DNA of 64,000 nucleotides from Gammaproteobacteria bacterium (GTDB taxonomy: Bacteria > Pseudomonadota > Gammaproteobacteria > Pseudomonadales > Azotimanducaceae). The stretch is taken from assembly GCA_002726655.1 (NCBI GenBank), contig PBRP01000034.1:19087-83086 (forward strand), in the 5' to 3' direction. Of the stretch, positions 14,404 through 60,596 are shown one piece after another (the first letter of the stretch is position 1; the number at the start of each line of letters is the position of its first letter). A model generated the notes under the pieces. It saw only the letters and a program-made list of their open reading frames with translations. It did not search any database and had not been told where the DNA came from. The translations under genes and the position numbers were made by a program.

Positions 14404-14715
14404 CACCTCATTAGGGTCTAGCCGACTGCTGAAAAGCAGACTGTTAGACCGATACATGAATGTATCGGCCGCAAATCAACGAAGTAAGTTGTTGATTTAT
14501 CGCGAGCGGGCTGAGGCCCGCGACCCTGAAAAAGTGCAGGAAAGCACTATTTTAGCAACCCGTTATAGGTACTGACCATCGTTATAGTACATCTTCCCAC
14601 ACAAGAAGACCTTCATGTAGAATCCCAACCAATCCAGACTCTGCAGCACAAACCAATATGGCAACAGGGATCACTAACAAGGTTGGATATCCAACAAAGG
14701 GCATATCGCTTCACT

Positions 14716-16302
14716 ATGACTGAGTCACACAGCACTCGCCGGGACAGAAAACGCACAAAGCGTTCGGGTGGCCGCTCGGCACGCAGGAAGATCCGCAGCA
14801 ATACAAATGCCGCTAATGCCGTCAGGGCCGGTATGCCGGGAGGACAGTATCGACCTTTAACTGATAATGATATCAAGCGTATCTATGACACCGCACTCAA
14901 GATCCTGGAAGACATAGGCATTGGCGATCCGATTCCCGAAATCCTTCACTATGCCCTGCCCAAGGGCTGCACTCTGGACACCGACAACAGGTTGCGCTTC
15001 CCGCGCAGCCTGGTAGAAGATCTTATCGATGTTTCTGCCAAGGAATACGTGCTCCATTCTCAGGATCCTGTAAATGATCTTACGGTACGCGGCACTGATG
15101 TTCTTTTTGGCTCATCGGGTGAAGCCGTTTCTATACTTGATTATGAATCCCAGCGTTTCAGGCCAACACGCCTGGTCGATCTATACGATGCGAGCCGGCT
15201 GGCCGATCAACTAGAACACATTCACACCTTCGGTCAACCATTTATCGCGGCTGAATACAGTGGAAATGTCTATGTCCATAACATTAACATTGCCTACGCA
15301 CAGCTAGCCGGGACGCGGAAATCTTTCGCGCTTGGCATTGCTGAAGTCGACCATATAGAGACGTTGATCGCACTTTTTGACACTTATCTCGGCGAAGAGG
15401 GTGCTTTCTTAAAACGACCTTTTTGTACCTTTGGCGGATGCCCGATCGTATCACCACTGCGATTCGGTAAAGACAATGCCGAGGTACTGGTCAAGGTTGC
15501 GGAACTGGGTTTACACGTAGATGTGGCGGTCGCTCCCCAGGCAGGAGCGACTTCTCCTGCCGCATTGGCGGGAACCCTGGCGCAGTGCTTTGCTGAAACG
15601 CTTGCCTGTATGTGCGTGGTAAATCTGGTTCGACCCGGTACCGCCATCAATTTTGGTATGTGGCCCTTCATCTCAGATCTGCGTACCGGCGCCTTTACGG
15701 GTGGCAGCGGCGAGGAGGCGCTCGTCATGGCCGCGACAACACAACTCTGTAACCACTTCGGCTTTATTACCAGTGTCGGTGCAGGAATGACCGACTCAAA
15801 AACCATGGACGTTCAGGCTGGATACGAAAAGGCTCTGACCACAGTCACCGCGGCGCTCGCTGGATGCAATCTGATTGCAGCCTACCCTGGTATTGTAGGT
15901 AGCCTGATTGGCCAATCGTTTGAGGGCATGGTGATTGACAATGACATGATAGGTAACATACAGCGTATATTGAGAGGAATAGAGGTAACTGAAGAAACCC
16001 TGTCCTATGACGTGATCAAACAGACAGTTACAGGCGCCGGCCACTTTCTTGGAAGTCAGCAGACCCTTGAACTGATGGAGACAGAATACCTATACCCCAG
16101 CGTCGCTGACAGACTTGCTCCCGCGGCCTGGGAAGAACTGGGAAGTAAAACCCTATATGAAAAGGCTCATGATCGAGTAGGAAACATGCTAAATGACTAC
16201 TACCCACAGTACATCGACCCAAAAGTAGACGCCCGTATTCGTGAGAACTTTCCGATAAAACTAGATCCGATTGATATGAGACGCGGGAATGGGAGATGGT
16301 AA
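14716..16302 (+). CDS. MttB-superfamily (non-pyrrolysine) methyltransferase, paralogue 2
   Basis: Same blocks as paralogue 1 (GGCPIVSPLR, APQAGATSPAALAG, FTGGSGEEAL, ...RRGNGRW). Arg-rich N-terminal leader. Start at the internal Met 14716; the ORF-track start is 14683. Confidence 0.85.
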   Translation: MTESHSTRRDRKRTKRSGGRSARRKIRSNTNAANAVRAGMPGGQYRPLTDNDIKRIYDTALKILEDIGIGDPIPEILHYALPKGCTLDTDNRLRFPRSLVEDLIDVSAKEYVLHSQDPVNDLTVRGTDVLFGSSGEAVSILDYESQRFRPTRLVDLYDASRLADQLEHIHTFGQPFIAAEYSGNVYVHNINIAYAQLAGTRKSFALGIAEVDHIETLIALFDTYLGEEGAFLKRPFCTFGGCPIVSPLRFGKDNAEVLVKVAELGLHVDVAVAPQAGATSPAALAGTLAQCFAETLACMCVVNLVRPGTAINFGMWPFISDLRTGAFTGGSGEEALVMAATTQLCNHFGFITSVGAGMTDSKTMDVQAGYEKALTTVTAALAGCNLIAAYPGIVGSLIGQSFEGMVIDNDMIGNIQRILRGIEVTEETLSYDVIKQTVTGAGHFLGSQQTLELMETEYLYPSVADRLAPAAWEELGSKTLYEKAHDRVGNMLNDYYPQYIDPKVDARIRENFPIKLDPIDMRRGNGRW

Positions 16303-16383
16303 TCCCGGCTTGGATCCGAGCTAAGTTCTTGCTATTTTGAAACATCCTCGCGACTAACGAAGCAGTGGAATAGGAATAGGAAT

Positions 16384-17088
16384 ATGTCACAAGACAATGA
16401 AGAGCAGGACGAAGAGATCATTCTATCGGAGCTCAATGATGAAGAGCTGGTGGAACAGATATTCGACGATCTATACGATGGCCTTGCGGAGGAAATCGCT
16501 GAGGCGACTCAAATACTGCTTGACCGCGGATGGTCAGCCAAAAAGGTACTTGATGACGCGCTTGTCGGCGGCATGAATATCGTGGGTGTGGATTTTCGGG
16601 ACGGGATTCTGTTCGTACCGGAAGTCCTGCTATCGGCAAACGCCATGAAAGCCGGGATGAGCATTCTAAAGCCGATTCTTGCAGCGGCTGGTGCCAAGCC
16701 AGTGGGAAAGATGGTCATCGGTACTGTTAAGGGAGATATCCATGATATCGGCAAAAACCTGGTGGGTATGATGATGGAAGGCGCCGGGTTTGAAGTCATT
16801 GATATTGGTATTAACACGGACGTCGAAACCTACATCGAAACCCTTAACAGGGAGAATCCGGATATTCTAGGTATGTCAGCACTTCTGACCACAACCATGC
16901 CCTATATGAAAGTCGTCATCGACAGAATGCAGGAGCGCAATATTCGCGATAACTATATCGTCATGGTTGGCGGTGCTCCGCTAAACGAGGAGTTCGCCAA
17001 CGCGATGGGGGCTGATGCCTATTGCCGCGATGCAGCCACCGCTGTTGAGATAGCTAAAGATCTGGTGCAGAAACGACGTGCTGGCTGA
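16384..17088 (+). CDS. Corrinoid (cobalamin-binding) methyl-carrier protein
   Basis: 234 aa. Has the B12-binding DxHxxG motif (GDIHDIGKNLV), then SALLTTTMP and GGAPLN as in MtbC/MtgC/MetH cap plus Rossmann domains. The N-terminal roughly 40 aa are unusually acidic. Confidence 0.88.
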   Translation: MSQDNEEQDEEIILSELNDEELVEQIFDDLYDGLAEEIAEATQILLDRGWSAKKVLDDALVGGMNIVGVDFRDGILFVPEVLLSANAMKAGMSILKPILAAAGAKPVGKMVIGTVKGDIHDIGKNLVGMMMEGAGFEVIDIGINTDVETYIETLNRENPDILGMSALLTTTMPYMKVVIDRMQERNIRDNYIVMVGGAPLNEEFANAMGADAYCRDAATAVEIAKDLVQKRRAG

Positions 17089-17109
17089 ACCGGTCTTCAC
17101 AGTTTCCCA

Positions 17110-17721
17110 GTGAACAATTCTTCACCCCGTATATTGCTGATAGGGTGCGGTGCTATCGCCCAGGAACTGCTTGATTTGCAGCGTTGCAACGGCTGGGCAC
17201 ACATCAAATTGCAGTGTCTGCCAGCAGGATTGCACAATACACCGGAGAAAATACCCGACGCGGTTGGCGCGCTGGTTGAAAAGTGGCAAAGCCATTATGA
17301 ACAGATCCTGGTCGCCTACGCCGATTGTGGTACCGGCGGCCTGCTTGATGCCAAACTTGATGAATACGGTATTGAACGCCTGCCAGGAGCCCACTGTTAT
17401 GAGTTTTTTTCAGGCTCGGAAGTGTTCGACGGATTCTTAACTGAGGAAATAGGCACCTACTACCTAACAGATTTTCTCGTGCGCCATTTTGACCGGCTTA
17501 TCAAGGCAGGTCTGGGTCTGGATGTTCACCCTGAATTATTGCCTGTATATTTCAGCAACTACAAGCGGGTAATGTACCTGGCGCAGACACGTTCGCAAAA
17601 TCTATCACTGCTGGCCCGCGAACATGCCGAATATCTTGGACTTGACTACTGTGAGCACTATACGGGTCTCGCACCTTTGGGCAGGGCACTGACAGCAGAG
17701 TCAATTCTTGTGCAAAGCTAG
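17110..17721 (+). CDS. DUF1638 domain protein
   Basis: 203 aa, GTG start. The pattern ILLIGCGAI...CLPAGLHNTPEKI...ADCGTGG...YYLTDFL is what I recall for DUF1638, a family commonly embedded in corrinoid methyltransferase clusters. Confidence 0.6.
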   Translation: MNNSSPRILLIGCGAIAQELLDLQRCNGWAHIKLQCLPAGLHNTPEKIPDAVGALVEKWQSHYEQILVAYADCGTGGLLDAKLDEYGIERLPGAHCYEFFSGSEVFDGFLTEEIGTYYLTDFLVRHFDRLIKAGLGLDVHPELLPVYFSNYKRVMYLAQTRSQNLSLLAREHAEYLGLDYCEHYTGLAPLGRALTAESILVQS

Positions 17722-17780
17722 CGGCCATTTCCAATGAGCGCTGGCGATTTCCACCTTGAAGTACTCAGAAGGAATTCAGG

Positions 17781-18686
17781 ATGACTGACACGGTAATCAG
17801 TTCCGCAAAGAAAGAGGTAGTTATTGGCTTCGAGCAGCCCTTCGTTGTAATTGGAGAGCGAATTAATCCAACAGGACGGAAAATGCTGTCAGAAGAAATG
17901 AAGCTTGGCGACTATTCCCGTGTACAGACTGATGCTATAGCTCAGATCGAGGCGGGCGCTCAAGTACTGGACGTTAATGCCGGCATACCTCTGGCGGATG
18001 AACCGACAATACTGGCAGACTGTATCAAGCTCTTGCAGTCAATTAGCGATGTGCCCCTGTGTATCGATTCATCAATGGTCGAAGCTCTTGAAGCAGGGCT
18101 TGCGGTTTATCAGGGCAAGGCTCTCCTAAATTCGGTTACGGGTGAAGATGAGGTCCTGGAGCGGATATTGCCACTGGTTAAGAAATACGGATGTGCAGTC
18201 GTTGCCATCTGCAATGACGACACCGGCATATCAGAAGATATTGAGGTTCACTTTCAGGTTGCCAGGAAAATCATCGAGCGGGCATCGGACCATGGGATTG
18301 CCAGCAGTGATATTGTAGTCGATCCCCTGGTGATGCCCGTCGGTGCCATAGGTACCGCAGGCAGACAGGCAATGGCACTGGTAGAGCGATTAAGGTCCGA
18401 GTTGGGTGTTAACACCACTTGTGGGGCTTCAAATCTGAGTTTCGGCTTACCCAACCGCTCTGGTCTCAACGCTGCATTCATCAGTATGATAATGGGAAGC
18501 GGTATGACATCGGCTATTACCAACCCGCTAAAACCAGACCTGATGCAGGCAGTTAGAGGTGCTGATGTCGTGATGGGTCATGACTCTGAATGTGCCGCCT
18601 GGATTGAGTCGTATCGAGATCGCTCAGAAGGAGCAGCAGTGAAGCGGGGTAGGCGCGGTGGTCGACGCGCTCGCAGGGCCAAATAA
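17781..18686 (+). CDS. Methyltetrahydrofolate:corrinoid methyltransferase (pterin-binding, MtgA/AcsE/MtrH-like)
   Basis: 301 aa. Has a pterin-binding TIM-barrel pattern (IGERINPTGRK, LDVNAG, CIDSS, LNSVTGE, GASNLSFGLPNR). Arg-rich C-terminal tail. Confidence 0.82.
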   Translation: MTDTVISSAKKEVVIGFEQPFVVIGERINPTGRKMLSEEMKLGDYSRVQTDAIAQIEAGAQVLDVNAGIPLADEPTILADCIKLLQSISDVPLCIDSSMVEALEAGLAVYQGKALLNSVTGEDEVLERILPLVKKYGCAVVAICNDDTGISEDIEVHFQVARKIIERASDHGIASSDIVVDPLVMPVGAIGTAGRQAMALVERLRSELGVNTTCGASNLSFGLPNRSGLNAAFISMIMGSGMTSAITNPLKPDLMQAVRGADVVMGHDSECAAWIESYRDRSEGAAVKRGRRGGRRARRAK

Positions 18687-18719
18687 CCGACATAACTACC
18701 CAGGGGTGAATTGAGAATC

Positions 18720-20720
18720 ATGCCTACCGGCAAGGACCCGAAGATCATTTTTTCACCATCCGGCAAACGCGGACAATTTCCTGCTGGTACAAGCCTGTTG
18801 CAGGCAGCTCGCAAGCTGGGTGTCGACATTGATTCCGTTTGCGGCGGGCGAGGAACCTGTGGCCGTTGTCAGGTAACCGTCTCTGAGGGAGAGTTTTCAA
18901 AACATGGTATCGTTTCGAATACGGCACACCTATCGGATCAGAATGAAGCAGAATCCCGCAGCCGCGATAAACGAAAGCTAAGAGAAGGTCATCGCCTGAG
19001 CTGTCAAACCCAATTGCTCGGCGACATCGCCATTGACGTGCCGAGTACTAGCCAGATCCATCGCCAGCTTGTATGCAAAGACCACGAAGCCCGCGCGATT
19101 AGTATTAATCCCTCGGTACATGCCTTTTTCGTTGAAGTAGCCAGGCCAAGTTTGACAGACCCCACCGGTGACCTCGAACGGCTGATGGCAGCACTTGAGA
19201 AGGATTGGCAGCTTAGCAACCTGGTGTGTGACCTCGCCATAACACGTTCTTTGCCGGAAGTACTCAGGACCGCGAACTGGCAAGTCACAGTCGCAGTAAG
19301 AGGTTCAACTGAGATTGTTGCCGTCTCTGCAGGGTTGAAAGAATCTCTCTATGGTGTCGCTATTGACGTTGGCTCTACTACAATTGCGGCGCACCTCTGC
19401 GACCTGAGCAGTGGAGAAGTACTAGCTAGCGCTGGCCGCATGAATCCACAGATTCGGTATGGAGAGGATCTGATGAGCCGGGTTTCCTACATCATGTTAA
19501 ATTCGGGTGGGGAGGCTGAACTGATCAAGGCTGTGCGGGGGGCGATCTCAGAACTCCTGATCGAAACGACTGCCAAGGCCAGGTTGCGCCCGCTGGATAT
19601 CGTCGAAATAGTTATTGTCGGCAACCCAATCATGCAGCACCTGGTACTTGGCCTAAACCCAATTCATCTCGGTACCGCCCCCTTCACCCTGACAAGCGAC
19701 GCAGCCACCAGTGTCCGGGCACGTGATATTGGTATTGATATCAGCCCGGGAGGATATGCCTATGTTCTACCCTGTATAGCCGGCCATGTCGGTGCTGATG
19801 CGGCAGCGGTGTTACTCGCGGAAGCGCCCTATGATCGTGACGAAATTTCCCTGCTCATTGACGTCGGTACCAACGCTGAAATATTTCTCGGAAACCGTGA
19901 TCGCATACTTGCGGCATCCAGTCCCACAGGGCCAGCATTCGAGGGGGCACAGATCAGCTCTGGCCAAAGAGCGGCGCCCGGCGCGGTGGAAAGAGTTCGT
20001 ATTGACCACGACACGCTTGAACCCAGATTCAAGGTCGTAGGTTGTGACGTCTGGTCTGATGACGCTGCTTTTAACGATCAATTGCCTGTCACGGGTGTCA
20101 GCGGAATATGTGGTTCCGGAATAATTGAGGCAGTAGCGGAATTGTTTCTCGCAGGAGTAGTTAATGCTGAAGGAGTTATTACACCCGAAGCAGCAGCACG
20201 CTCGAAACGTATTGTCAGGCAGGAGCGAACATTCACCTACATCCTGGTTGAGGGTGAACCCGGTGTTCGCATCGAGCAAAACGATATCCGCGCAATCCAA
20301 CTGGCAAAGGCTGCTCTCTATGCAGGGGTTCGTTTGCTTATGGACAAGTTGGGCGTAACACGAGTGCAGCGGATACGACTTGCTGGAGCATTTGGTGCAA
20401 ATATCGATGTTAAGTACGCAATGATACTGGGTATGATTCCAGACTGTGACTTGTCGAATGTTTCTTCTGCCGGCAATGCTGCCGGGACCGGAGCGCGTAT
20501 CGCACTTCTAGATAGGCATGCCAGACAGCTCATAGAACAGCAGGTAAGGGCCATTGAAAAAATTGAAACTGCAGCAGAGGATAGCTTCCAGGATCACTAT
20601 GTTTCGGCCATGGGTATTCCACACCAGTTCGACCCGTTTACCGAGTTGCGCAAGCTTGTCGAAGTACCAATCACTAAACCGGCAACGACCGGTAGACGCC
20701 GAAGAAAACGAACTAGGTAG
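18720..20720 (+). CDS. RamA/ASKHA-type corrinoid reductive activase with N-terminal 2Fe-2S ferredoxin domain
   Basis: Plant-type ferredoxin motif CGGRGTCGRCQV...C near the N-terminus, followed by a large ASKHA (sugar-kinase/actin-like) domain (AIDVGSTTIAAH, LIDVGTNAEI, ICGSGIIEA). Arg-rich C-terminal tail. The ORF-track TTG start is at 18711. Confidence 0.82.
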   Translation: MPTGKDPKIIFSPSGKRGQFPAGTSLLQAARKLGVDIDSVCGGRGTCGRCQVTVSEGEFSKHGIVSNTAHLSDQNEAESRSRDKRKLREGHRLSCQTQLLGDIAIDVPSTSQIHRQLVCKDHEARAISINPSVHAFFVEVARPSLTDPTGDLERLMAALEKDWQLSNLVCDLAITRSLPEVLRTANWQVTVAVRGSTEIVAVSAGLKESLYGVAIDVGSTTIAAHLCDLSSGEVLASAGRMNPQIRYGEDLMSRVSYIMLNSGGEAELIKAVRGAISELLIETTAKARLRPLDIVEIVIVGNPIMQHLVLGLNPIHLGTAPFTLTSDAATSVRARDIGIDISPGGYAYVLPCIAGHVGADAAAVLLAEAPYDRDEISLLIDVGTNAEIFLGNRDRILAASSPTGPAFEGAQISSGQRAAPGAVERVRIDHDTLEPRFKVVGCDVWSDDAAFNDQLPVTGVSGICGSGIIEAVAELFLAGVVNAEGVITPEAAARSKRIVRQERTFTYILVEGEPGVRIEQNDIRAIQLAKAALYAGVRLLMDKLGVTRVQRIRLAGAFGANIDVKYAMILGMIPDCDLSNVSSAGNAAGTGARIALLDRHARQLIEQQVRAIEKIETAAEDSFQDHYVSAMGIPHQFDPFTELRKLVEVPITKPATTGRRRRKRTR

Positions 20721-20755
20721 GGTGCGCTGGATTACTAAATTGCACGGGAATCAAT

Positions 20756-22270
20756 ATGGCCAGAAGAAGTCATCGTAAGAAACGCGATGCTAATGCTATC
20801 CGGCAGCTTCCATTCAACAACGTCACAAATCCATACCCACCAATGGAAGTGCTTAATGATAGTCAGGTTCAGAAGATAGTCACCACTGCTCTGACAGTGC
20901 TGGAGTCTCACGGCATGCGCTTCATGCATGATGAAAGTCGACGCCTGCTGAGACAGGCTGGAGCCAACGTGGATGACTCGCAACAGATGGTGCGAATTGA
21001 TCGTGATCTTGTCTTGGAGAAAATTGCACAGGCCCCATCAGAATTCACACTAAGCGCCCGAAACCCCGATCATGATCTGAAGATCGGCGCGAACAACATC
21101 GTCTTTACATCTGTTGGCGGGCCAGCATTTTGCACCGACCTCGACCAGGGTCGGCGTCCGGGTACCTATGAAAACATGTGCGACTATCTGAAGCTGGTCC
21201 AGAGTTTGAATATCGTTCACCAGGAAGGGGGCGGTGCCTTTGAAGCAATGGACCTGCCACCGGAATCACGACACCTTGACCTCTACCTCGCTCAATCGAC
21301 TCTGCTCGACAAGAATGCGCAAGCCTACGCCCTGGGCCGAACGCGTACCATTGACTGCATCGAGATGACCTGTATTGCCCATGGAATTGATCGGACCGAG
21401 CTAGAAAAAAGGCCATACATACTTGCGATAATCAACACCAACTCCCCGCGACAGCTAGACGTTCCAATGTCAGAGGCTGTTATCGAACTGGCTTTAGCTG
21501 GGCAGGTTAGTTGTATTACACCCTTTACTATGGCCGGGTTTATGAGTCCAGTCACCCTTGCCGGTACCCTGGTACAGCAAACTGCCGAAATTCTGGCTGT
21601 GGCAACCCTCGCACAGGCAGTTAGGCCAGGCGCCCCAGTGATATATGGATCCTTTGCCTCAAATATCGACATGCAAACCGGAGCGCCTGCACTCGGAACG
21701 CCTGAATACACAAAAATGTCTTTCGCAAGCTGCCAGATAGCCCGCTGTCTGGGACTGCCCAGCAGATCCAGCAATACAACGACGTCAAACTGTGCTGATG
21801 CACAATCTGCATATGAAAGTGAGATGTCACTATGGGGATCTGTAATGGGTCACGCAAACCTTGTCAATCATGCGGCCGGCTGGCTGGAGAGCGGCTTAAC
21901 AGCATCGTTTGAAAAATTGATGCTTGATGCTGAGATGCTGCAAATGATGGCAGAGACACTGAAGGCTATAGAAGTCAGCGATGAGGAGTTGGCACTAGAC
22001 GCAATCTCGAACGTTGAGCCCGGAGGTCATCACTTCATGACTGAACACACCCTCGCGCGTTACGAAACTGCCTTTTATCCGAGTATGCTCTCAACCCGTC
22101 AGAATTTTGAAACCTGGAGTGAGCAAGGCCAACAGGATGCAACCATGAGAGCCAACACCATGTGGAAACAACTACTAAATGAATATGAGCGCCCTGCCAT
22201 TGAGCCCGATAAGGAGGAAGCCCTTAAGGACTATGTTGCGAGACGCAAGCGAGAAATTGCAACGCCTTGA
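20756..22270 (+). CDS. MttB-superfamily (non-pyrrolysine) methyltransferase, paralogue 3
   Basis: 504 aa with no in-frame stop. More diverged, but keeps family architecture (..INTNSPRQLD.., ITPFTMAGFMSPVTLAGTLVQQTAE.., GAPALGTPE..). Basic N-terminus MARRSHRKKRD. Confidence 0.78.
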   Translation: MARRSHRKKRDANAIRQLPFNNVTNPYPPMEVLNDSQVQKIVTTALTVLESHGMRFMHDESRRLLRQAGANVDDSQQMVRIDRDLVLEKIAQAPSEFTLSARNPDHDLKIGANNIVFTSVGGPAFCTDLDQGRRPGTYENMCDYLKLVQSLNIVHQEGGGAFEAMDLPPESRHLDLYLAQSTLLDKNAQAYALGRTRTIDCIEMTCIAHGIDRTELEKRPYILAIINTNSPRQLDVPMSEAVIELALAGQVSCITPFTMAGFMSPVTLAGTLVQQTAEILAVATLAQAVRPGAPVIYGSFASNIDMQTGAPALGTPEYTKMSFASCQIARCLGLPSRSSNTTTSNCADAQSAYESEMSLWGSVMGHANLVNHAAGWLESGLTASFEKLMLDAEMLQMMAETLKAIEVSDEELALDAISNVEPGGHHFMTEHTLARYETAFYPSMLSTRQNFETWSEQGQQDATMRANTMWKQLLNEYERPAIEPDKEEALKDYVARRKREIATP

Positions 22271-22291
22271 GAAAGGAGCCGGACTGAACAC

Positions 22292-23818
22292 ATGCGACCA
22301 ACATTAACCACGCTTGACGACCAACTCAAGGACCGGATTCTGACTGAAGCAAAGCGCCTGATGGCCGAAGTGGGAATGGAAATTCGCGGTGAGCCCCTGA
22401 AGCAGAGACTGCTGGATCATGGACTGAAATCAGACGCCGCTGGTACTCGCATTTTCTTCCCACAGGATGTGGTTGAAAAAGCCATTGCTGACGCACCGGG
22501 TTCATTTTCTCTTTTTGATCGGGACGGTGAATTTCACACTGAAATTGGTGGTAACAATGTACACTTCGTTCCCGGCTCGAGTGGGCTCAAGATCCTCGAT
22601 CACAGGAGCGGACAATGCCGCCTGGCCAATTCACATGATTATGTCGAGTATGTACGCCTGTGCGACGGGCTTGAACACATTGCCTACCTGGCAACCGCGT
22701 TTTCTACTAACCAGGACATAGAGTCGCAGGTATCCGATGCCTGGCGCCTCTATATGACACTGACTAACTCGAAGAAACCCATAGTATCGGGTGCTTTCAG
22801 TGAAAATGGTGTGCCTCGGATGGTAGAGATGATGCAGATGTTCCGCCAGAGCCGCGCAGATCTCATCGCTAAACCCATGTCAATTTTCACCATTACCGCG
22901 ACTGGGAACTTCCGTTACGGCGAAGATTCATGCCAGAACCTGCTTGATTGCGTCGAAGCCGGAATCCCTGTGGAAATTGTACCGGTAACCTTGATGGGGC
23001 TTATTGCACCAGTAACCCTGGTGGGAGCCCTGGTGTTTCATTGTGTTGACGTTCTCACCGGCATAACAATGGCGCAAATTGTCAGACCCGGCGCAGCGGT
23101 GCTTTTTGGTGGTGCACCGGCAACCTTTCATATGAAGGCGGCAAGTTCACCCATGGCCGCCATTGAGGCACAACATCTCAATGTGGCTTACGTGGAAATC
23201 GCCAAGTCTCTCAGTTTACCTACCCAGGCCTACATGGCGTTAAGTGATGCTAAGTCTCTTGATGCCCAGGCTGGTGCCGAGACTTTCAGCAGTGCTCTGG
23301 TGGCGGCAATAGCCGGTGTCAATTCGATCTCCGGTCCGGGCATGCTGGATTTTGTCCTGACGTTCAGCCTGCCCAAGCTCATCTTTGACAATGACCTCTG
23401 TGGTCAGGCTTTGCATTTTGTACGTGAAATCAAGGTGCTTGAAGACCTGCCCTCAGATGACCTGGTCAAAGAACTCCTGCAGGAAGATCACCTGCTCACT
23501 TCGCCACATACCTTGAAAAACTGGCCCCAGGAGCTTTATCTTACTGACTCCGTTATCGACCGCTTCAGCCGCGAAAAATGGCTGGAAGAAGGCGCTAGAG
23601 AACTCCATGAACGCGCCGGTGAGGAAGTAGACCGCAGGCTAAGCGCCTATACCCCGATTGCTACCGATGCCCAGATTGATCAAGCCATGAAAGACCTTGT
23701 TACCTCAGGATTCAAGACCCAGACAGACCTGCCTGAACTGCCTCCATTGCCCGCGTCGCCAGGGACAGCGCCAGCGTCAGGTCGTCGAGGTCGAGCCCGA
23801 CGTCGCCGCAAGCGCTAA
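22292..23818 (+). CDS. MttB-superfamily (non-pyrrolysine) methyltransferase, paralogue 4
   Basis: 508 aa. AAGGAG Shine-Dalgarno upstream. Family blocks present ([27 protein letters not shown]). Has a proline-rich linker and then an Arg-rich C-terminal tail. Confidence 0.75.
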
Positions 23819-52708: not shown

Positions 52709-52734
52709 TAGTCATGCCCGGTAAGCAGAAAAGC

Positions 52735-52869
52735 TTAGGCTGAGAGAACTTTACGGCCCTTTGCTCTTCGTCTCTTCAAAACCAGACGGCCAGCCTTAGT
52801 GGACATTCTGGAACGGAATCCATGCCTTCGCTTTCTTTTTAAATTACTTGGTTGGAAAGTTCTTTTCAT
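52735..52869 (-). CDS. rpmH: 50S ribosomal protein L34
   Basis: Not in the ORF track because it is under 60 aa. The minus strand translates to [44 protein letters not shown], the canonical L34. Confidence 0.95.
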
Positions 52870-52959
52870 TTGCCTGCACCAGTCAGAATGGGTCTAAAAA
52901 GGAGCGGCGATTCTAATGAAGAACCCAATTACAGTCAATCAGACAATTCATTTTACCTA

Positions 52960-53240
52960 ATAAGCTTGTGATGGTAGCTCGCTCTTAATATTATCTAATT
53001 ATATATAAATTTATTATTGTTGTTTTTATTAGTGATGATTTTTCTGTGGATTAGTCGGTATTCTGGTCCTATTTCAAGGGGTTAGCTACTTAATAAGGAT
53101 GGTGGCCGATTATGTATTTGTGGCATAGAGGGTGTTGATATGTTGGGGACTAAACACGGTTTTATCCACCGCTCTTTGCCATAGGTTGGGACAACACTTT
53201 TTATACACAGGTTACCCACAGGTTAGTAACTAATTATTGA
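52960..53240. other. Candidate chromosomal replication origin (oriC) / dnaA control region
   Basis: AT-rich tract at about 52985-53040 (possible unwinding element). It is followed by four 9-mers, each one mismatch from TTATCCACA: 53045-53053 (minus, TAATCCACA), 53162-53170 (TTATCCACC), 53201-53209 (TTATACACA) and 53212-53220 (TTACCCACA). Located in the rpmH-dnaA spacer as in Pseudomonas. Coding strand switches here. Confidence 0.6.
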
Positions 53241-53478
53241 GTGGGTTCATGTATAAATTATTGAAAAATATAGAGTTTTTTTCGGTTATTTGTCTACCAA
53301 TGCTTGGCTTGAGGCAGTCAAAGGCGTTAGTATTCGAGGCTGGAAATAGAGAAGATCAGACCGTATAGAACTTCTTTGCTGTCTCGCTCGAAATCCAAAT
53401 GCGCTTTATAAAAAAAGGCCGTGCTTTAACAAAGATTTCTTAAAACATTATAAAAATAAAGCTAAGAGTGAGGGTTCT

Positions 53479-54813
53479 GTGGGGGCAACAATCTGGCATA
53501 AATGCCTACAAATTCTTGAAGATGAATTATCTTCACAACAATACAACACATGGATTAAACCACTTCAGGTGACCGCTGGCGGTTCTAATGTGACTTTGTT
53601 GGCACCAAATAGATATATCCGTGATCGAGTCAACGATCAGTTTCTGAGTCGGATAAAGGAGTTGCTGGAGGTACAGGGTTCTACAGAGGTAATTCTGGAG
53701 ATTGGTAGTAGTGGCAGGGCTCGTAAGGCCAACACTGACAGACAGGAAGCGTTGGATATCAGCCTTGCGGCCAGGGAGAATTTCTATCCCTTGTTGGAAC
53801 TGAACAAGGATTTCACTTTTGATACCTTTGTTTCTGGCAGTTCAAATGAAATGGCGTGGGCAGCGGCCATGCAGGTGTCAGAAAACGTTGGCGGAGCATC
53901 TTACAACCCCTTGCTGTTGTACGGTGGATCAGGATTAGGAAAGACCCATCTGATGCATGCCGTGGGTAATTCCATCATTGAAAAGCACCCCAATCTAAAA
54001 GTAGCTTACATGTATTCCCAGCGTTTTATGGAAGACATGGTTAGAGCGATTGAGCATGGCACCATGTCGGACTTCACCCAGTACTACCGGTCTGTTGATG
54101 TTTTACTTATGGATGATATTCAGTTTCTAGCCAAAGGATCCAAGTCACAGGAGGAATTCTTCCATGTTTTCAATAGGTTACAGGAAGATAGCAGGCAAAT
54201 AGTATTAACCTGCGATCGTTACCCAAAGGAGATACAGGGACTGGAGGAGAGACTGGAGAGCCGTTTTGTCTGGGGCATGACTGCGGCGGTTGAACCCCCG
54301 GAGTTGGAGACCAGGATAGCGATTCTGATGAAGAAAGCCGAACTGGAGCAGACGGTTCTTCCGCATGATCCAGCTTTTTTCATCGCAGAGCGAATCCGGT
54401 CAAATGTACGGGAGTTGGAAGGAGCGCTGAAACGAGTTATTGCTAACGCAAGGTTCACTGACCGCCAAATCTCAATAGAGCAGGTTCGTGAATCGCTGCG
54501 GGATCTTATTGCCATACAGGACAGACAAGTCGGCATCGACAACATTCAGAAGACCGTTGCGGACTACTACAAAATAAGGATTGCCGATCTACTCTCAAAA
54601 AGGCGTAATCGATCTGTAGCCAGACCAAGGCAACTGGCAATGGCATTGGCTAAAAAACTGACCAACCACAGTTTACCGGAAATAGGTGATTCTTTTGGCG
54701 GCAGGGACCATACCACGGTGCTGCATGCCTGCCGAAAAATTGAAGAGCTTAGAGAAAGTAAGCCAGAGATCAATGAAGACTACCGTAATTTGCTGCGCTT
54801 ACTCACCGCCTGA
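53479..54813 (+). CDS. dnaA: Chromosomal replication initiator DnaA
   Basis: 444 aa, GTG start. Has AAA+ Walker [11 protein letters not shown], plus the domain IV helix-turn-helix ([32 protein letters not shown]). Confidence 0.96.
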
Positions 54814-54827
54814 TTGCTCTGCAGCGA

Positions 54828-55931
54828 ATGAAGTTTTCAATAAATCGTGAAGCGCTACTCGAGCCCTTGCAGGTCGTCACTAATGTTGTAGAGCGCAGGC
54901 AGACCCTGCCGATATTGTCTAATTTGCTGATTGCCATTGAAGACAATACCCTAAGTATGACCGGTACCGATCAGGAAGTAGAATTGATCGCACGTACTGA
55001 TGCTTTCAGTAGTGATGAAGTTGGTGAAATTACTGTACCCGCAAGGAAGTTGTTGGACATTTGCAAAAGTTTACCGCAAGCCGCCATTGTCGATTGCTCG
55101 CTAAAGGAAGGCCGGCTGGCGATAAAGAGTGGAACCTTTAAGTCGCAGCTAGCCACCCTGCCTGTGGTGGATTTCCCGAATGTCGAAATGGACTCATATG
55201 ATGTCACTTTTGTACTAGCCGCCGGTGTATTGCAGCAACTATTGGATAAGACCAGTTTTGCGCTGGCTCAACAGGATGTTCGTTACTTTTTCAATGGTTT
55301 GTTACTTGAAGCGGAAGGCAGCCTGGTGAGGTTCGTTGCAACCAATGGCCAGCGACTGGCCACCAGCTATGTTGATGAGGTTGAGACTGGATCAAGTCAG
55401 CAGTTCATTGTTCCCCGCAAGGGAGTGAATGAACTCTCAAGACTAGTTCAGGATGGCGGCGATCAGGAAGTGAAGATGAGCTTTTCCAGCAATCATATGC
55501 AGGTTCATTGTGCGCAGGCCACTTTAACAAGCAAGTTGATAGATGCCACCTATCCCGATTACACCCGGGCGATTCCAGAAGGGGGAGACAAGATACTGGT
55601 GGGTGACCGCTTACTAATAAAGGAAGCACTTAGCCGAACAGCAATTCTTTCAAATGAGTTGTATCGGAATGTCAGGCTATTACTAGAACCTGGAAAACTT
55701 GGGATGCATGCAAATAACCCCATGCTGGAGGAGGCCGAAGAAACTGTTACCGTCGACTATAGTGGATTGCCATTGGAAATAGGCTTTAATGTTGGCTATC
55801 TCATCGAGACCTTGACGGTCATGCAAGGAGAAAAGGTGCGCATGGAGTTAACGGATGCGAATAGCGCTTGTTTATTGACAGACCCTGATGATATAAACTC
55901 TCGCTATGTTATCAGCCCAATGATGCTATAG
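54828..55931 (+). CDS. DNA polymerase III beta sliding clamp, divergent upstream paralogue
   Basis: 367 aa, full length with three clamp domains. The N-terminus MKFSINREALLEPLQVVTNVVERRQTLPILSNLL and the blocks QQDVRYFFNGLL, FIVPRKGV, TSKLID..YPDY and ANNP..EEAEE are clamp-like. Several otherwise invariant gammaproteobacterial positions differ (see findings). Confidence 0.85.
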   Translation: MKFSINREALLEPLQVVTNVVERRQTLPILSNLLIAIEDNTLSMTGTDQEVELIARTDAFSSDEVGEITVPARKLLDICKSLPQAAIVDCSLKEGRLAIKSGTFKSQLATLPVVDFPNVEMDSYDVTFVLAAGVLQQLLDKTSFALAQQDVRYFFNGLLLEAEGSLVRFVATNGQRLATSYVDEVETGSSQQFIVPRKGVNELSRLVQDGGDQEVKMSFSSNHMQVHCAQATLTSKLIDATYPDYTRAIPEGGDKILVGDRLLIKEALSRTAILSNELYRNVRLLLEPGKLGMHANNPMLEEAEETVTVDYSGLPLEIGFNVGYLIETLTVMQGEKVRMELTDANSACLLTDPDDINSRYVISPMML

Positions 55932-55992
55932 TTGAGTTAGGGTTAGTGTAAGCGCTTACTAACATATCGGTGCACATACCTGGTGGTGTCCT

Positions 55993-57093
55993 ATGAAATT
56001 TTCAATTAATCGAGAAGTCCTTTTGCGACCTTTACAGCAGGTAGCTGGTGTCGTAGAGCGTCGACAGACGCTTCCAGTGCTGGCGAATGTGCTGATGCAG
56101 GTAACTGAAAATCAGCTGTCGATGACCGGTACGGATCTGGAAGTCGAGCTGGTGGGCAGGGTGGAGTTAGAGGGAGCCAGCGCCGGTGAAATTACCGTGC
56201 CAGCAAGAAAGCTGGTGGATATTTGTCGAGAAATTCCCGAAAAAGCTGAAATAGAGTTTGGGCTCAACGATCAGAGGCTGGAGATCAAGTCCGGCAGATT
56301 CCGATCAAACCTGTCAACTTTACCCGCAGATGATTTTCCTGCGGTCGACAGTACTGCTTCTGAAATGTCGTCGACGGTAGAGAGCAAAGCCTTCAAGAAA
56401 TTACTGGATAGCACCGGTTTTGCCATGGCTCAGCAGGATGTCCGTTATTTTCTGAATGGCATGCTAATAGAGATTGGTAGTGGCCGTATAAGATCTGTAT
56501 CAACCGATGGTCATCGCTTGGCTATGGGGAATCTAACGGTAAAAACTGAGAACGATGAAATGCGGCAAGTCATTGTGCCGAGAAAAGGGATTGTGGAAAT
56601 ACAGCGCTTGTTGAATGAACTGGAGGGGGATGTAGAAATTTCTCTGGGTGCCGGTCATGTCTGTGTTTCATCCAGGGATTACACCTTGACCTCGAAACTG
56701 GTAGATGGTCGATTCCCAGAATACGAGAGGGTGATTCCAAGGAATGGTGACAAGATCATTTTTGCGGACAGGGTTGAATTGCGCCAGGCTCTCAATCGTA
56801 CAGCAATACTCTCAAACGAAAAATTCCGCGGTATCAGGGTAATACTCAGTAAAGGATCTATCCAGTTGTCTGCTAATAACCCGGAGCAGGAGGAAGCAGA
56901 GGAGACGGTATCGGTAGAATATGACGGAGAGGGCATCGAAATAGGCTTCAACGTCAGCTATCTGCAGGATGTGTTGGGTGTTTTGGAGAGTGATAAAGTC
57001 AAGCTGACTCTTCATGATGGGAACAGCAGCGCGCTCCTCGAAGACCCTGATAATGAAGATACCCTTTACGTGGTTATGCCAATGAAGTTATGA
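55993..57093 (+). CDS. dnaN: DNA polymerase III beta sliding clamp (canonical-looking copy)
   Basis: 366 aa. Closely resembles Pseudomonas/E. coli DnaN as I recall them (GTDLEVELVGRV, STDGHRLAM, SKLVDGRFPEYERVIP, ILSNEKFRGIR, ANNPEQEEAEE, GFNVSYLQDVLGV, YVVMPMKL). ATGA overlap with recF. Confidence 0.95.
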   Translation: MKFSINREVLLRPLQQVAGVVERRQTLPVLANVLMQVTENQLSMTGTDLEVELVGRVELEGASAGEITVPARKLVDICREIPEKAEIEFGLNDQRLEIKSGRFRSNLSTLPADDFPAVDSTASEMSSTVESKAFKKLLDSTGFAMAQQDVRYFLNGMLIEIGSGRIRSVSTDGHRLAMGNLTVKTENDEMRQVIVPRKGIVEIQRLLNELEGDVEISLGAGHVCVSSRDYTLTSKLVDGRFPEYERVIPRNGDKIIFADRVELRQALNRTAILSNEKFRGIRVILSKGSIQLSANNPEQEEAEETVSVEYDGEGIEIGFNVSYLQDVLGVLESDKVKLTLHDGNSSALLEDPDNEDTLYVVMPMKL

Positions 57094-58178
57094 GCCTGGC
57101 CCGGCTGGATGTAACGGGCGTTAGAAATATTCGTCAGGCTACCCTGGAACTCAGTGCCGGAACCAATCTGATTTATGGCGGTAATGGCAGCGGTAAGACG
57201 AGCCTGCTCGAGTCGGTCTATATCCTGGGTGCCGCCAGGTCCTACAGGGGTCACACAATCGAGCCGTTAATTTCAAGGGGACAGGATGAGTGCCTGGTCC
57301 GCGGTGTTATCGAATCCCTTCCATCACGACATACAATCGGTGTACAGAGAAGACGGGGAGGTGAACGGGAAATTCGTGTTGATGGAAATGACGTAAAACG
57401 TGCCACGGATTTAGCCAACCTTTTACCAACCCTTGTCATTGGACCGGATACGGTCAATCTACTGCTGGGACCGCCAGGGATCAGAAGGCGATTCTTGAAT
57501 TGGGGATTGTTTCACGTGGAACCTTCCTTCACTGAGGTCTGGGGAAATGCCAATAGATGTTTGCGGCAACGCAATGAATTGCTGCGCAGGCATGCGCCAG
57601 CGGATGAATTGGGTATTTGGACACGGGAGCTGGTTGGATATTCAGAACAGCTGGACAAAATCAGAGCAGCCTTTAGCACGGAATACGGTGAGATTTTCCT
57701 GCAAAACTGTATGCGGATGACCGAATTGCCTGATATTTCGTTCAAATACTACCGGGGCTGGAATCATGATCAGCAATTACTGGAATTGTATGAAAAAGAT
57801 GACGAAAGTGATCGAAAAAGAGGGTTCACACAGCGCGGTTTTCAGCGCGCTGATGTTAGAATAGAGGTAGCCGGTGAGGATGCTATCGGCTCATGTTCTC
57901 GCGGTGAACTCAAGGTAATTTCCTGGACTATGGTTATCAGCCAAGGGGCCATGTTGAATGATGCCAGGGCTGGCAATCTCATATACCTGGTCGATGACCT
58001 GGGCTCTGAGTTGGATCTGCAGCATCAAGCACGGATGTGTACTTACTTGAGATCGACAGGTAGGCAGGTTCTCGCCACAGGCATAGAGCAAGATAGGCTC
58101 ATTGAATCCTGGGGTGGAGAAGGTAGCAAATTGTTTCACGTGGAACATGGTTCCGTGAAGCAGCGAGGAGAAGATTGA
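57090..58178 (+). CDS. recF: DNA replication and repair protein RecF
   Basis: 362 aa. Contains L.V.GVRNI, with Walker A GGNGSGKTSLLE. Confidence 0.94.
   Translation: MSLARLDVTGVRNIRQATLELSAGTNLIYGGNGSGKTSLLESVYILGAARSYRGHTIEPLISRGQDECLVRGVIESLPSRHTIGVQRRRGGEREIRVDGNDVKRATDLANLLPTLVIGPDTVNLLLGPPGIRRRFLNWGLFHVEPSFTEVWGNANRCLRQRNELLRRHAPADELGIWTRELVGYSEQLDKIRAAFSTEYGEIFLQNCMRMTELPDISFKYYRGWNHDQQLLELYEKDDESDRKRGFTQRGFQRADVRIEVAGEDAIGSCSRGELKVISWTMVISQGAMLNDARAGNLIYLVDDLGSELDLQHQARMCTYLRSTGRQVLATGIEQDRLIESWGGEGSKLFHVEHGSVKQRGED

Positions 58179-60596
<2,418 letters not shown>

What the first reader, a model, noticed from the sequence alone, without database searches (positions are those of the whole stretch)
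54828..57093. Tandem, diverged sliding-clamp genes inside the dnaA-dnaN-recF-gyrB core
Two complete dnaN-like ORFs (367 and 366 aa) lie head to tail between dnaA and recF. Both start MKFSINRE.LL.PLQ.V..VVERRQTLP. By hand they are only about half identical overall (39 of the first 60 residues), and synonymous sites are saturated, so this is not a recent duplication or an assembly stutter. The downstream copy, which overlaps recF, carries the canonical gammaproteobacterial blocks. The upstream copy, 14 nt after dnaA, differs at normally invariant positions:
- GTDLEVEL becomes GTDQEVEL.
- TDGHRLA becomes TNGQRLA.
- LVDGRFPEYERV becomes LIDATYPDYTRA.
- NEKFRGIR becomes NELYRNVR.
- SNSSAL becomes ANSACL.
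- VVMPMKL becomes VISPMML.
Second clamps are known elsewhere, for example antibiotic self-resistance or damage-tolerance paralogues. A diverged clamp inserted at the first position after dnaA, in the most conserved gene string of the bacterial chromosome, is unusual. It raises the possibility of heterodimeric clamps or a clamp specialised for a subset of clamp-binding partners (Hda/RIDA, translesion polymerases, mismatch repair).
Basis: partly seen in the sequence, partly recalled or inferred. Interest (0 to 1): 0.72.

Follow-up and report, generated by a model that had tools for sequence, protein, structure and literature searches.

The report
Conserved second sliding clamp, altered pocket
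A whole group of uncultured marine bacteria keeps two DNA sliding-clamp genes side by side at the replication origin; the extra, upstream clamp is intact and under selection but its partner-docking pocket has been rebuilt, so it probably recruits a different set of proteins to DNA than the ordinary clamp does.

Summary
Two intact dnaN genes (367 and 366 aa, 50% identical) lie between dnaA and recF. This is not an artefact: the same protein and layout occur on 18 independent assemblies. The order dnaA, upstream dnaN (UP), downstream dnaN (DOWN), recF, gyrB recurs in about 70 species-level genomes of marine Pseudomonadales (OM182 / HTCC2089 / Ca. Azotimanducaceae).

DOWN is the canonical clamp. 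UP is a distinct paralogue family under purifying selection (median dN/dS about 0.05 against 0.02 for DOWN) and evolves about twice as fast. Its model superposes on solved clamps (TM 0.96), and it keeps the DNA-contact residues. Its family-fixed substitutions concentrate in the partner-binding pocket: L155F, H175Q, V247A and M362S, with a relaxed subsite II.

Both copies share an unusual interface change (S104F/F106S). I found no gene conversion and no mobile-element relative. One nested lineage has cleanly lost UP, so DOWN suffices alone and an obligate heterodimer is unlikely.

Best reading: an accessory clamp with re-specified partner recognition. Its partner, its oligomeric state and its origin (the tree is unresolved) remain unknown. 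I found no prior description in the literature I could search. I rate it a new variant of a known kind.

The parts
53479..54813 (+). dnaA, the replication initiator and first gene of the conserved string
   Evidence: TIGR00362 at 565 bits against a cut-off of 344. The GC-skew minimum and an AT-rich stretch lie just upstream at about 52.7-53.5 kb.
54828..55931 (+). UP dnaN: a diverged beta-clamp paralogue with a rebuilt partner pocket (F155, N173, Q175, A248, S363 in its own numbering)
   Evidence: The signature residues are invariant across the family. The AlphaFold2 model has pLDDT 87 and TM 0.96 to solved clamps. Median dN/dS is about 0.05.
55932..55992 (+). 61-nt spacer between the two clamp genes, with no terminator-like site and a GGTGG Shine-Dalgarno-like motif before the downstream start
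   Evidence: Spacer length varies from 23 to 514 nt among relatives.
55993..57093 (+). DOWN dnaN: the canonical gammaproteobacterial beta clamp (pocket L-H-V-M) carrying the clade-specific S104F/F106S interface state
   Evidence: TIGR00663 at 355 bits. It scores 468 bits to the P. aeruginosa clamp. All pocket residues are canonical. Median dN/dS is about 0.02.
57090..58178 (+). recF, overlapping the DOWN stop codon by 4 nt
   Evidence: TIGR00611 at 296 bits; coordinates.
58179..60596 (+). gyrB, the end of the conserved dnaA-dnaN-recF-gyrB string
   Evidence: Pfam gyrase B domains are recorded for the identical gene in L001.

Best explanation
The upstream gene encodes an accessory second beta sliding clamp that has been kept for a long time by one clade of marine Pseudomonadales.

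Shown here:
- It is an intact, three-domain clamp protein under purifying selection.
- It sits between dnaA and the canonical dnaN, with no terminator-like site between the two clamp genes.
- It keeps the residues that contact DNA, and most of the ring interface.
- Its fixed differences from canonical clamps concentrate in the hydrophobic cleft where polymerases, the clamp loader and repair or regulatory proteins dock.

Inferred:
- UP still forms a ring on DNA, but its cleft accepts a different or narrower set of clamp-binding motifs. Subsite I is reshaped by a large-for-small swap (L155F with V247A). The two bridge residues H175 and M362 are replaced by Q and S. Subsite II, which holds the conserved Gln of the motif, is degenerate.
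- UP therefore gives the cell a second, partly separate docking platform. DOWN remains the general replicative clamp.
- UP most likely pairs with itself, though mixed rings with DOWN are physically plausible.
- It most likely arose by tandem duplication within the lineage, after the S104F/F106S interface change.
For: Conservation:
- 74 of the 80 fetched species-representative loci carry UP, always in the order dnaA-UP-DOWN-recF-gyrB.
- All 70 distinct complete pairs are intact ORFs.
- The two families separate cleanly, 119 to 119.

Selection:
- Median omega is 0.052 for UP and 0.021 for DOWN over 29 unsaturated ortholog pairs. The median dN ratio UP/DOWN is 2.1.

Clamp identity:
- Family models pass. 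The model has pLDDT 87 and TM 0.96, RMSD about 1.6 A, to the P. aeruginosa and E. coli clamps.
- R24, R73, Q149 and K198 are retained.

Pocket:
- Using the residue list from PMC11139829, 4 of the 9 sites fixed differently in the two families are pocket residues: L155F, H175Q, V247A, M362S. Hypergeometric P = 4.5e-4 against all 366 sites, and P = 0.03 against the 90 doubly conserved columns.
- D173N, F241Y, F278Y and G280N lie next to pocket residues in sequence. Positions 344 and 365 (subsite II), S346 and K277 are relaxed or changed.
- Q175 occurs only in UP-type sequences among the 145 nearest 50%-identity representatives out of 1.84 billion proteins.

Accessory role:
- L093 is nested among tandem genomes (dnaA 85% and gyrB 89% to L027). 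It has only DOWN and no relic of UP.

Self-pairing:
- In 14 genomes, UP residue 105 is E. UP's own 301 is Q in all 14, and its 303 is T or I in clusters 22-23. DOWN in the same genomes keeps D301 and E303.

Origin:
- Both families share F104/S106, which is otherwise seen in only one of the canonical representatives.
- There is no gene conversion: same-genome and other-genome UP-DOWN identity differ by at most 0.8%.
- There are no phage, plasmid or viral-contig relatives above 45% identity.

Plausibility:
- E. coli clamps with a single working cleft still load and support Pol III (PMC2685083).
Against: - No partner has been identified, and no binding, loading or expression data exist. The altered specificity is inferred from residue identity alone.
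- The pocket enrichment is only modest (P = 0.03) when restricted to columns conserved in both families.
- If UP forms homodimers, it must still be loaded. Its subsite I, where the clamp-loader delta subunit plugs in (PMC11139829), is the part that changed.
- The self-pairing argument rests on one to three evolutionary events. The Fisher tests are not corrected for phylogeny.
- The tree does not resolve UP and DOWN as sisters: 31% bootstrap, falling to 6% without columns 104 and 106.
- UP is more weakly conserved overall (0.63 against 0.76 mean majority fraction). Shine-Dalgarno-like motifs precede it less often than they precede DOWN (27 of 70 against 44 of 70 loci). It has been lost at least once. 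Its contribution may therefore be small.
Confidence: 0.6

Rival explanations
1. Asymmetric heterodimeric clamp. UP and DOWN assemble head to tail into one ring with two different clefts: one canonical cleft for the clamp loader and Pol III, and one re-specified cleft for another partner. This would be a hard-wired 'toolbelt'.
For: - The two genes are adjacent in every tandem locus, with no terminator-like site between them in the window.
- Both copies keep the same rare interface geometry, F104/S106 with I78, I272 and L273.
- E. coli heterodimers with a single working cleft load normally and support Pol III (PMC2685083). The title of PMC3022782 states that a single cleft is sufficient for viability.
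- This arrangement would explain how a protomer with an altered delta-docking site could still be loaded.
Against: - A lineage nested in the clade lost UP and retains DOWN as its only clamp, with an unchanged sequence signature. DOWN therefore does not need UP.
- In clusters 22-24, the charge reversal at UP residue 105 (E) is compensated at UP's own 301 and 303. It is not compensated in DOWN, so a UP-domain I:DOWN-domain III interface would place E105 against D301/E303.
- The F104/S106 state also occurs in single-copy clamps (P0260, P0191), so it is not evidence for cross-pairing.
- E. coli single-cleft rings are severely impaired for unloading.
Confidence: 0.2
2. Inhibitor-resistant backup clamp. 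UP is a replication-competent clamp whose altered cleft escapes a cleft-targeting antibiotic, toxin or phage protein, by analogy with GriR and MypR.
For: The changes lie exactly in the cleft that griselimycin-type compounds and clamp-binding peptides occupy. Second DnaN genes acting as self-resistance determinants are documented (PMC10817943).
Against: - There is no biosynthetic cluster, transposase or mobile context. The neighbours are dnaA, recF, gyrB, rnpA and yidC in every genome.
- The F-Q-A-S signature is essentially invariant across UP sequences that are only about 47% identical to each other. That looks like stable recognition and not an arms race.
- A backup clamp would still have to bind the unchanged Pol III and delta motifs through a cleft altered at four core positions.
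Confidence: 0.1
3. Non-loaded regulator or decoy. UP no longer works as a DNA-encircling processivity factor. Instead it binds and titrates a clamp partner, for example an Hda-like or DnaA-linked regulator or a clamp-loader subunit, and so tunes initiation or clamp recycling.
For: UP sits immediately after dnaA. Its interface ion pairs are relaxed (E298 is never acidic, R103 and R105 are variable) and K277 is lost. It is dispensable in one lineage.
Against: The DNA-contact residues R24, R73, Q149 and K198, and the hydrophobic interface core, remain conserved in UP. A soluble decoy would not need them. Canonical dnaN also follows dnaA directly in bacteria generally, so the position is uninformative.
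Confidence: 0.07
4. Redundant duplicate drifting towards loss, or an assembly or binning artefact.
For: UP evolves about twice as fast as DOWN and has been lost in one lineage.
Against: All 70 distinct copies are intact. Omega is about 0.05. The signature residues are fixed across the family. The same arrangement is found on 18 independent assemblies of this organism and on complete chromosomes such as CP121333.1 and CP170502.1.
Confidence: 0.02

Closest known systems
Canonical bacterial beta sliding clamp (DnaN) of E. coli (1MMI) and P. aeruginosa (6AMS)
   Same: UP has the same three-domain fold (TM 0.96) and the same length. It passes the dnaN equivalog model. It keeps the DNA-contact residues and most of the dimer interface, and it occupies the position after dnaA.
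   Different: UP carries L155F, H175Q, V247A and M362S in the partner cleft. Positions 344, 346 and 365 are relaxed, and E298 and K277 are lost. H175 is invariant in all sampled canonical clamps. UP coexists with a fully canonical copy.
Self-resistance DnaN paralogues GriR and MypR in griselimycin and mycoplanecin producers (PMC10817943)
   Same: Each is a second dnaN in a genome that also has the housekeeping copy, and the functional differences are expected in the ligand-binding cleft.
   Different: GriR and MypR are actinobacterial genes inside antibiotic biosynthetic clusters next to transposases. UP is in the origin-proximal housekeeping operon of a whole gammaproteobacterial clade, with no biosynthetic or mobile context.
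Engineered single-cleft E. coli beta heterodimers (Scouten Ponticelli, Duzen and Sutton 2009, PMC2685083; PMC3022782)
   Same: They show that a ring with two non-equivalent clefts can load and can support Pol III replication. That makes a mixed UP:DOWN ring, or division of labour between clefts, biochemically plausible.
   Different: These are laboratory constructs in which one cleft is destroyed. They are not natural paralogues with a re-specified cleft, and they unload poorly.
Heterotrimeric PCNA of Sulfolobus (PCNA1/2/3), recalled from my own knowledge (Dionne et al. 2003) and not checked here
   Same: It is a precedent for paralogous clamp subunits that each prefer different partners.
   Different: It is an archaeal PCNA, an obligate heterotrimer, and unrelated in sequence. 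For UP, obligate hetero-oligomerisation is disfavoured.
Bacillus anthracis dnaN1/dnaN2, recalled from my own knowledge and not checked here
   Same: It is a bacterium with two chromosomal clamp genes of unequal importance.
   Different: As far as I recall, the second copy lies elsewhere on the chromosome and not in tandem in the dnaA operon. No cleft re-specification comparable to F-Q-A-S is known to me.

Membership tests
Bacterial beta sliding clamp, DnaN (TIGR00663; PF00712 + PF02767 + PF02768) | Three tandem clamp domains, with a score above the curated family cut-off | tested here: met
   UP scores 312 bits and DOWN 355 bits against a cut-off of 137.65. All three Pfam domains are present in both, with E-values from 1e-32 to 1e-44.
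Bacterial beta sliding clamp, DnaN (TIGR00663; PF00712 + PF02767 + PF02768) | Clamp fold | tested here: met
   The AlphaFold2 model of UP has pLDDT 87 and pTM 0.81. Foldseek gives TM 0.96 and RMSD 1.5-1.7 A to P. aeruginosa clamps, and TM 0.92-0.96 to E. coli clamps.
Bacterial beta sliding clamp, DnaN (TIGR00663; PF00712 + PF02767 + PF02768) | Head-to-tail dimer interface: hydrophobic core I78/F106 against I272/L273, plus the ion pairs (PMC11139829) | tested here: inconclusive
   I78, I272 and L273 are kept. F106 is S, with F at position 104, in both UP and DOWN. In UP, E298 is never acidic and R96, R103 and R105 are only partly kept. The F104/S106 state also occurs in single-copy clamps, so it is compatible with a working ring.
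Bacterial beta sliding clamp, DnaN (TIGR00663; PF00712 + PF02767 + PF02768) | DNA-contact residues in the channel (R24, R73, Q149, K198). Their roles are recalled from the E. coli clamp-DNA structure. | tested here: met
   Conservation in UP: R24 84%, R73 94%, Q149 100%, K198 100%.
Bacterial beta sliding clamp, DnaN (TIGR00663; PF00712 + PF02767 + PF02768) | Canonical partner cleft (the subsite I and II residues listed in PMC11139829) | tested here: not met
   UP has L155F, H175Q, V247A and M362S fixed. Position 344 (N in DOWN) and position 365 (K in DOWN) are variable in UP, R246 is kept in 63% and Y323 in 79%. DOWN has every cleft residue canonical. UP is therefore a clamp by fold and descent but not a canonical one at its functional cleft.
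Bacterial beta sliding clamp, DnaN (TIGR00663; PF00712 + PF02767 + PF02768) | Loaded on primed DNA by the DnaX complex, and confers processivity | not testable with these tools
   This needs biochemistry.
Antibiotic self-resistance DnaN paralogues (GriR / MypR type) | Encoded within or beside a biosynthetic gene cluster for a clamp-targeting compound, near mobile genes | tested here: not met
   The neighbours are yidC, rnpA, dnaA, recF and gyrB in all loci. The criterion is taken from PMC10817943.
Antibiotic self-resistance DnaN paralogues (GriR / MypR type) | Second clamp gene in addition to the housekeeping copy | tested here: met
Antibiotic self-resistance DnaN paralogues (GriR / MypR type) | Reduced affinity for the inhibitor while still supporting replication | not testable with these tools
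   No inhibitor is known, and this needs biochemistry.
Obligate hetero-oligomeric clamp (as in Sulfolobus PCNA1/2/3) | The subunits require each other, so neither is found alone | tested here: not met
   L093 is nested within the tandem clade and carries only DOWN.
Obligate hetero-oligomeric clamp (as in Sulfolobus PCNA1/2/3) | Interface changes in one subunit are compensated in the other | tested here: inconclusive
   The one informative case (UP E105 with UP Q301 and T/I303, against DOWN D301/E303) favours self-pairing, but it represents only one to three events.

The most novel reading that the evidence does not exclude
UP and an as yet unidentified partner form a natural 'orthogonal' clamp-partner pair. 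Under this reading, the L155F/V247A size swap and the H175Q/M362S bridge change re-key the cleft, so that a dedicated polymerase, repair factor or initiation regulator is recruited to DNA without competing at the replicative clamp. UP would do this either as its own homodimer or as one half of a naturally asymmetric ring. That would be a bacterial answer to the long-standing question of how many partners share two identical clefts.
Probability: 0.25. Interest if true: 0.85.

Novelty: new variant of a known kind. Interest (0 to 1): 0.66.

Why it matters
The bacterial beta clamp is treated as a single homodimer whose two identical clefts are contested by a dozen partners. How traffic at those clefts is ordered is still an open problem, and the cleft is an antibiotic target. 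Here evolution has run the experiment. A second clamp has been kept across an entire, abundant marine clade, with the two bridge residues and two core residues of the cleft replaced and then held fixed. Identifying what binds the F-Q-A-S cleft would show which residues set clamp-binding-motif specificity. It could also reveal a dedicated clamp-dependent pathway and give a natural template for engineering orthogonal clamp-partner pairs. On the practical side, both genes are currently annotated simply as 'DNA polymerase III subunit beta', so the distinction is invisible in databases and in dnaN-based marker analyses.

Tried and rejected
1. AlphaFold on a linker-joined UP-DOWN chain with a genome-paired alignment (A2), to compare heterodimer and homodimer.

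2. A neighbour-joining tree of 204 clamps, to decide between in-lineage duplication and an older or foreign origin. UP is monophyletic in 171 of 200 bootstraps. UP and DOWN are sisters in only 62 of 200, and in 6 of 100 once columns 104 and 106 are removed. The origin is unresolved by the tree. A first run was also confounded because I had placed P0260 in the DOWN set.

3. I first read the shared F104/S106 interface as a hint of heterodimerisation. I rejected that after finding the same state in single-copy clamps: P0260/L092, a distant organism, and P0191/L093.

4. Fisher tests gave covariation between UP 103/105 and UP 301 (p = 3e-5 and 8e-4). All of it maps to one subclade, so I treat it as one to three events and not as statistics.

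5. The promoter and terminator scan of 52.7-58.3 kb gave counts equal to the shuffled expectation. It offers no evidence for a separate transcription unit.

6. Gene conversion between the copies: none detectable.

7. Phage, plasmid or viral origin: the best relatives are 37-45% identical and are ordinary clamps.

8. A search for positions where UP gained constraint, which might mark a new binding surface, found only one (I317).

9. The figure of 577 confirmed matches in the genome scan is not a count of tandem genomes. The patterns also hit canonical clamps, and the best-80 list already runs into 37-43% identical alphaproteobacterial clamps.

10. I could not look for partner genes (holA, hda, dnaE, polB, dinB and others).
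Full report
**1. The observation**

The ORF list confirms the following genes.

| Gene | Coordinates | Length |
|---|---|---|
| dnaA | 53479-54813 | 444 aa |
| upstream dnaN (UP) | 54828-55931 | 367 aa |
| downstream dnaN (DOWN) | 55993-57093 | 366 aa |
| recF | 57090-58178 | 362 aa |
| gyrB | 58179-60596 | 805 aa |

- UP begins 14 nt after the dnaA stop. DOWN overlaps recF by 4 nt.
- BLASTP of the two clamps gives 50% identity, 70% positives and five gaps.
- Both proteins have the three Pfam clamp domains. Both exceed the curated dnaN equivalog cut-off of 137.65 bits: UP 312 bits, DOWN 355 bits.
One correction: the downstream copy reads GNSSAL, not SNSSAL.
- Synonymous sites between the copies are saturated: the NG86 dS estimate is undefined, third-position identity is 0.33, and the longest shared exact word is 11 nt.
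- The region sits at the chromosomal origin. The cumulative GC-skew minimum and an AT-rich stretch lie just upstream of dnaA. ORFs of the sizes expected for mnmE, mnmG, rsmG, parAB and the atp operon follow on the other side; only mnmE, yidC and rnpA have family evidence, the rest are assigned by size and position.

**2. Not an artefact, and not peculiar to one genome**

- The exact UP protein is recorded on 18 independently assembled contigs from TARA, JGI, ENA and Logan. Every one of the 8 places shown that extends past UP has the same layout.
- Homologue searches with each copy returned two disjoint sets. In a joint alignment of 238 proteins they separate 119 to 119. UP-type proteins are 56-100% identical to UP and 45-54% to DOWN. 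DOWN-type proteins are 68-100% identical to DOWN and 49-55% to UP.
- A scan of one genome per GTDB species, using UP-specific peptide patterns, returned 80 loci. 74 of them carry an UP-type gene, always in the order dnaA-UP-DOWN-recF-gyrB. The other six are outgroups with a single dnaN.
- The record titles place the clade in marine Pseudomonadales: OM182, K189A, HTCC2089 and Ca. Azotimanducaceae. They include complete chromosomes of 2.9 to 4.4 Mb.
- All 70 distinct complete pairs are intact in both genes. The spacer between them is 23-514 nt.
- The figure of 577 pattern matches is not a count of tandem genomes, because the patterns also hit canonical clamps.

**3. Which copy is which**

- DOWN scores higher than UP against the solved P. 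aeruginosa clamp (468 against 385 bits) and the E. coli clamp (372 against 326 bits).
- DOWN has every partner-cleft residue in the canonical state. It is the ordinary replicative clamp.
- UP is a distinct paralogue family. All database names for it are simply 'DNA polymerase III subunit beta', and all sources are uncultured MAGs.

**4. UP is functional, not decaying**

- Over 29 ortholog pairs with unsaturated dS, median dN/dS is 0.052 for UP and 0.021 for DOWN. UP accumulates amino-acid changes about 2.1 times faster.
- An AlphaFold2 model built with 30 family members is confident (mean pLDDT 87, pTM 0.81). It superposes on P. aeruginosa and E. coli clamps with TM up to 0.96 and RMSD about 1.6 A.
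- Channel residues that contact DNA in the E. coli clamp are retained in UP: R24, R73, Q149 and K198. Their roles are from my own knowledge of the clamp-DNA structure.

**5. What changed**

I verified my recalled E. coli DnaN sequence as identical to 1MMI and took the cleft and interface residue lists from a 2024 review (PMC11139829).

- Nine positions are at least 90% conserved in each family but with different residues: L155F, D173N, H175Q, F241Y, V247A, F278Y, G280N, position 283 (L in UP, V in DOWN) and M362S.
- Four of these are among the 18 defined cleft residues. The hypergeometric probability is 4.5e-4 against all sites and 0.03 against the 90 columns conserved in both families. Most of the remainder are sequence neighbours of cleft residues.
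- H175 and M362 are the two residues the review describes as bridging subsites I and II. L155F with V247A is a large-for-small exchange inside subsite I.
- Subsite II is relaxed in UP: positions 344 and 365 are variable, and S346 becomes A or P.
- Among the 145 nearest full-length representatives from a search of 1.84 billion cluster representatives, Q175 occurs only in the seven UP-type representatives. Every canonical one keeps H.
- No new conserved surface appears in UP.
- The parsimonious reading is a cleft that still binds a hydrophobic motif, but with altered preference.

**6. The interface and the heterodimer question**

- Both families carry S104F/F106S, which moves the interface phenylalanine two residues along its strand. 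All outgroups have S or A at 104 and F or Y at 106.
- All 119 DOWN-type hits have the F104/S106 state, and nearly all UP-type hits do.
- I first took this as a hint of cross-pairing. The same state, however, occurs in single-copy clamps: P0260 in a distant organism (dnaA 43% identical to the window), and P0191. It is therefore compatible with an ordinary clamp ring.
- UP has lost E298, the partner of K74, in all 70 genomes. It keeps R96 and R103 in only 51 of 70, and a basic residue at 105 in only 32 of 70. DOWN keeps nearly all of the ion pairs.
- In one subclade of 14 genomes, UP residue 105 is reversed to E. UP's own 301 is neutralised to Q throughout that group, and its 303 to T or I in clusters 22-23, while DOWN keeps D301 and E303. 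A UP:UP interface is compensated, and a UP-domain I:DOWN-domain III interface would be repulsive. This favours self-pairing but reflects only one to three events.
- The strongest evidence comes from L093. Its neighbouring genes are as close to the tandem genome L027 (dnaA 85%, gyrB 89%) as those of the tandem genomes L071 and L094 are. Yet it has only DOWN, behind a 115-nt dnaA-dnaN spacer with no relic of UP. DOWN therefore works as the only clamp, and UP is accessory.
- A mixed ring is not excluded. E. coli heterodimers with one working cleft load and support Pol III normally, although they unload poorly (PMC2685083).

**7. Origin**

- The full-data neighbour-joining tree places UP as sister to the DOWN sequences of the same clade. 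Support is weak: UP monophyly 86%, UP plus DOWN 31%, and 6% without columns 104 and 106.
- Independent indications favour an old tandem duplication within the lineage, after the interface change:
  - the shared rare F104/S106 state;
  - no gene conversion that could have spread it, since same-genome and other-genome UP-DOWN identity differ by at most 0.8%;
  - uniform GC content across the two genes;
  - no close relative in phage, plasmid or viral-contig collections, where the best matches are 37-45% identical.
- I put this at roughly three in four. An older paralogue or an ancient transfer is not excluded.

**8. Expression signals**

- Promoter-like and terminator-like matches are no more frequent than in shuffled sequence, and none lies in the UP-DOWN spacer. 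This is consistent with co-transcription from dnaA-region promoters, as in E. coli (the E. coli arrangement is from my own knowledge).
- A Shine-Dalgarno-like motif precedes UP in 27 of 70 loci and DOWN in 44 of 70. This is a weak hint that UP is made in smaller amounts.

**9. Comparison with what is known**

- Second clamp genes are known as self-resistance determinants inside griselimycin and mycoplanecin gene clusters, next to transposases (PMC10817943). UP shares only the fact of being a second copy with expected cleft differences. Its context is purely housekeeping, and it is clade-wide.
- Paralogous clamp subunits with different partner preferences are known in the Sulfolobus heterotrimeric PCNA (my own knowledge). 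UP fails the obligate-partner criterion.
- Six full-text searches found no description of a tandem dnaN in this clade, or of a natural bacterial clamp with a re-specified cleft. The library does not cover subscription journals fully.

**10. Verdict**

The feature is a conserved, selected, origin-proximal second clamp with a rebuilt partner cleft. The specialised-clamp reading is supported by sequence evidence. The obligate-heterodimer reading is disfavoured. The partner, the oligomeric state and the physiological role remain to be established. I rate it a new variant of a known kind, with interest of about 0.66.

Noticed in passing
window 12868-23818: A cluster of four MttB-superfamily methyltransferase paralogues at 12868-14457 (-), 14683-16302, 20756-22270 and 22292-23818. 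They score 280-348 bits on TIGR02369, below its cut-off of 525, so they are non-pyrrolysine homologues. With them are an MtgC-like corrinoid protein (16384-17088), a methyl-THF:corrinoid methyltransferase (17781-18686) and a corrinoid reductive activase (18711-20720). Together these look like a quaternary-amine (glycine-betaine-type) demethylation module with several substrate-specific methyltransferases.
   Followed up: no
L093 3386-3500 (contig ZHEN20-1_SAMN07748056 scaffold_423; the same protein also lies on a 4.73-Mb contig): A member of the tandem clade has cleanly lost the upstream clamp. dnaA is followed after 115 nt by the canonical dnaN, with no recognisable remnant. It is a natural knockout useful for comparative genomics.
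   Followed up: partly
L092 4001-5110 (protein P0260): A distant gammaproteobacterium (dnaA 43%, gyrB 68% identical to the window) has a single clamp with the same S104F/F106S interface state and a canonical cleft. The relocation of the interface phenylalanine may therefore have arisen more than once.
   Followed up: partly
L064, L066, L078, L055, L063, L058 (between the two dnaN genes): Six tandem loci have unusually long UP-DOWN spacers (514, 357, 363, 255, 198 and 190 nt), against 23-110 nt elsewhere. I did not examine what these spacers contain.
   Followed up: no
L027, L071, L094 (upstream dnaN): In the subgroup that also contains the UP-loss lineage, UP diverges very fast (51-53% identity between genomes whose DOWN copies are 81% identical). 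Position 155 is L, not F, in L071 and L094. This may reflect relaxed or shifted constraint preceding loss.
   Followed up: partly
L032 and L036 (labelled Ca. Fonsibacter ubiquis); P0217 (labelled Ca. Pseudothioglobus); P0405 (labelled Burkholderiales): Contigs or proteins carrying this clade's clamp genes are filed under unrelated taxa in public MAGs. P0217's contig is the same one as an Azotimanducaceae MAG. These are most likely binning or naming errors.
   Followed up: partly
L090 5437-6195: In one of three otherwise near-identical contigs, recF is called as 252 aa where the others have 365 aa. This suggests a frameshift or assembly error in that record.
   Followed up: no
window 52709-53478: The intergenic region upstream of dnaA is AT-rich (GC 0.37-0.39) and coincides with the cumulative GC-skew minimum, so it probably contains oriC. 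I did not search for DnaA boxes.
   Followed up: no
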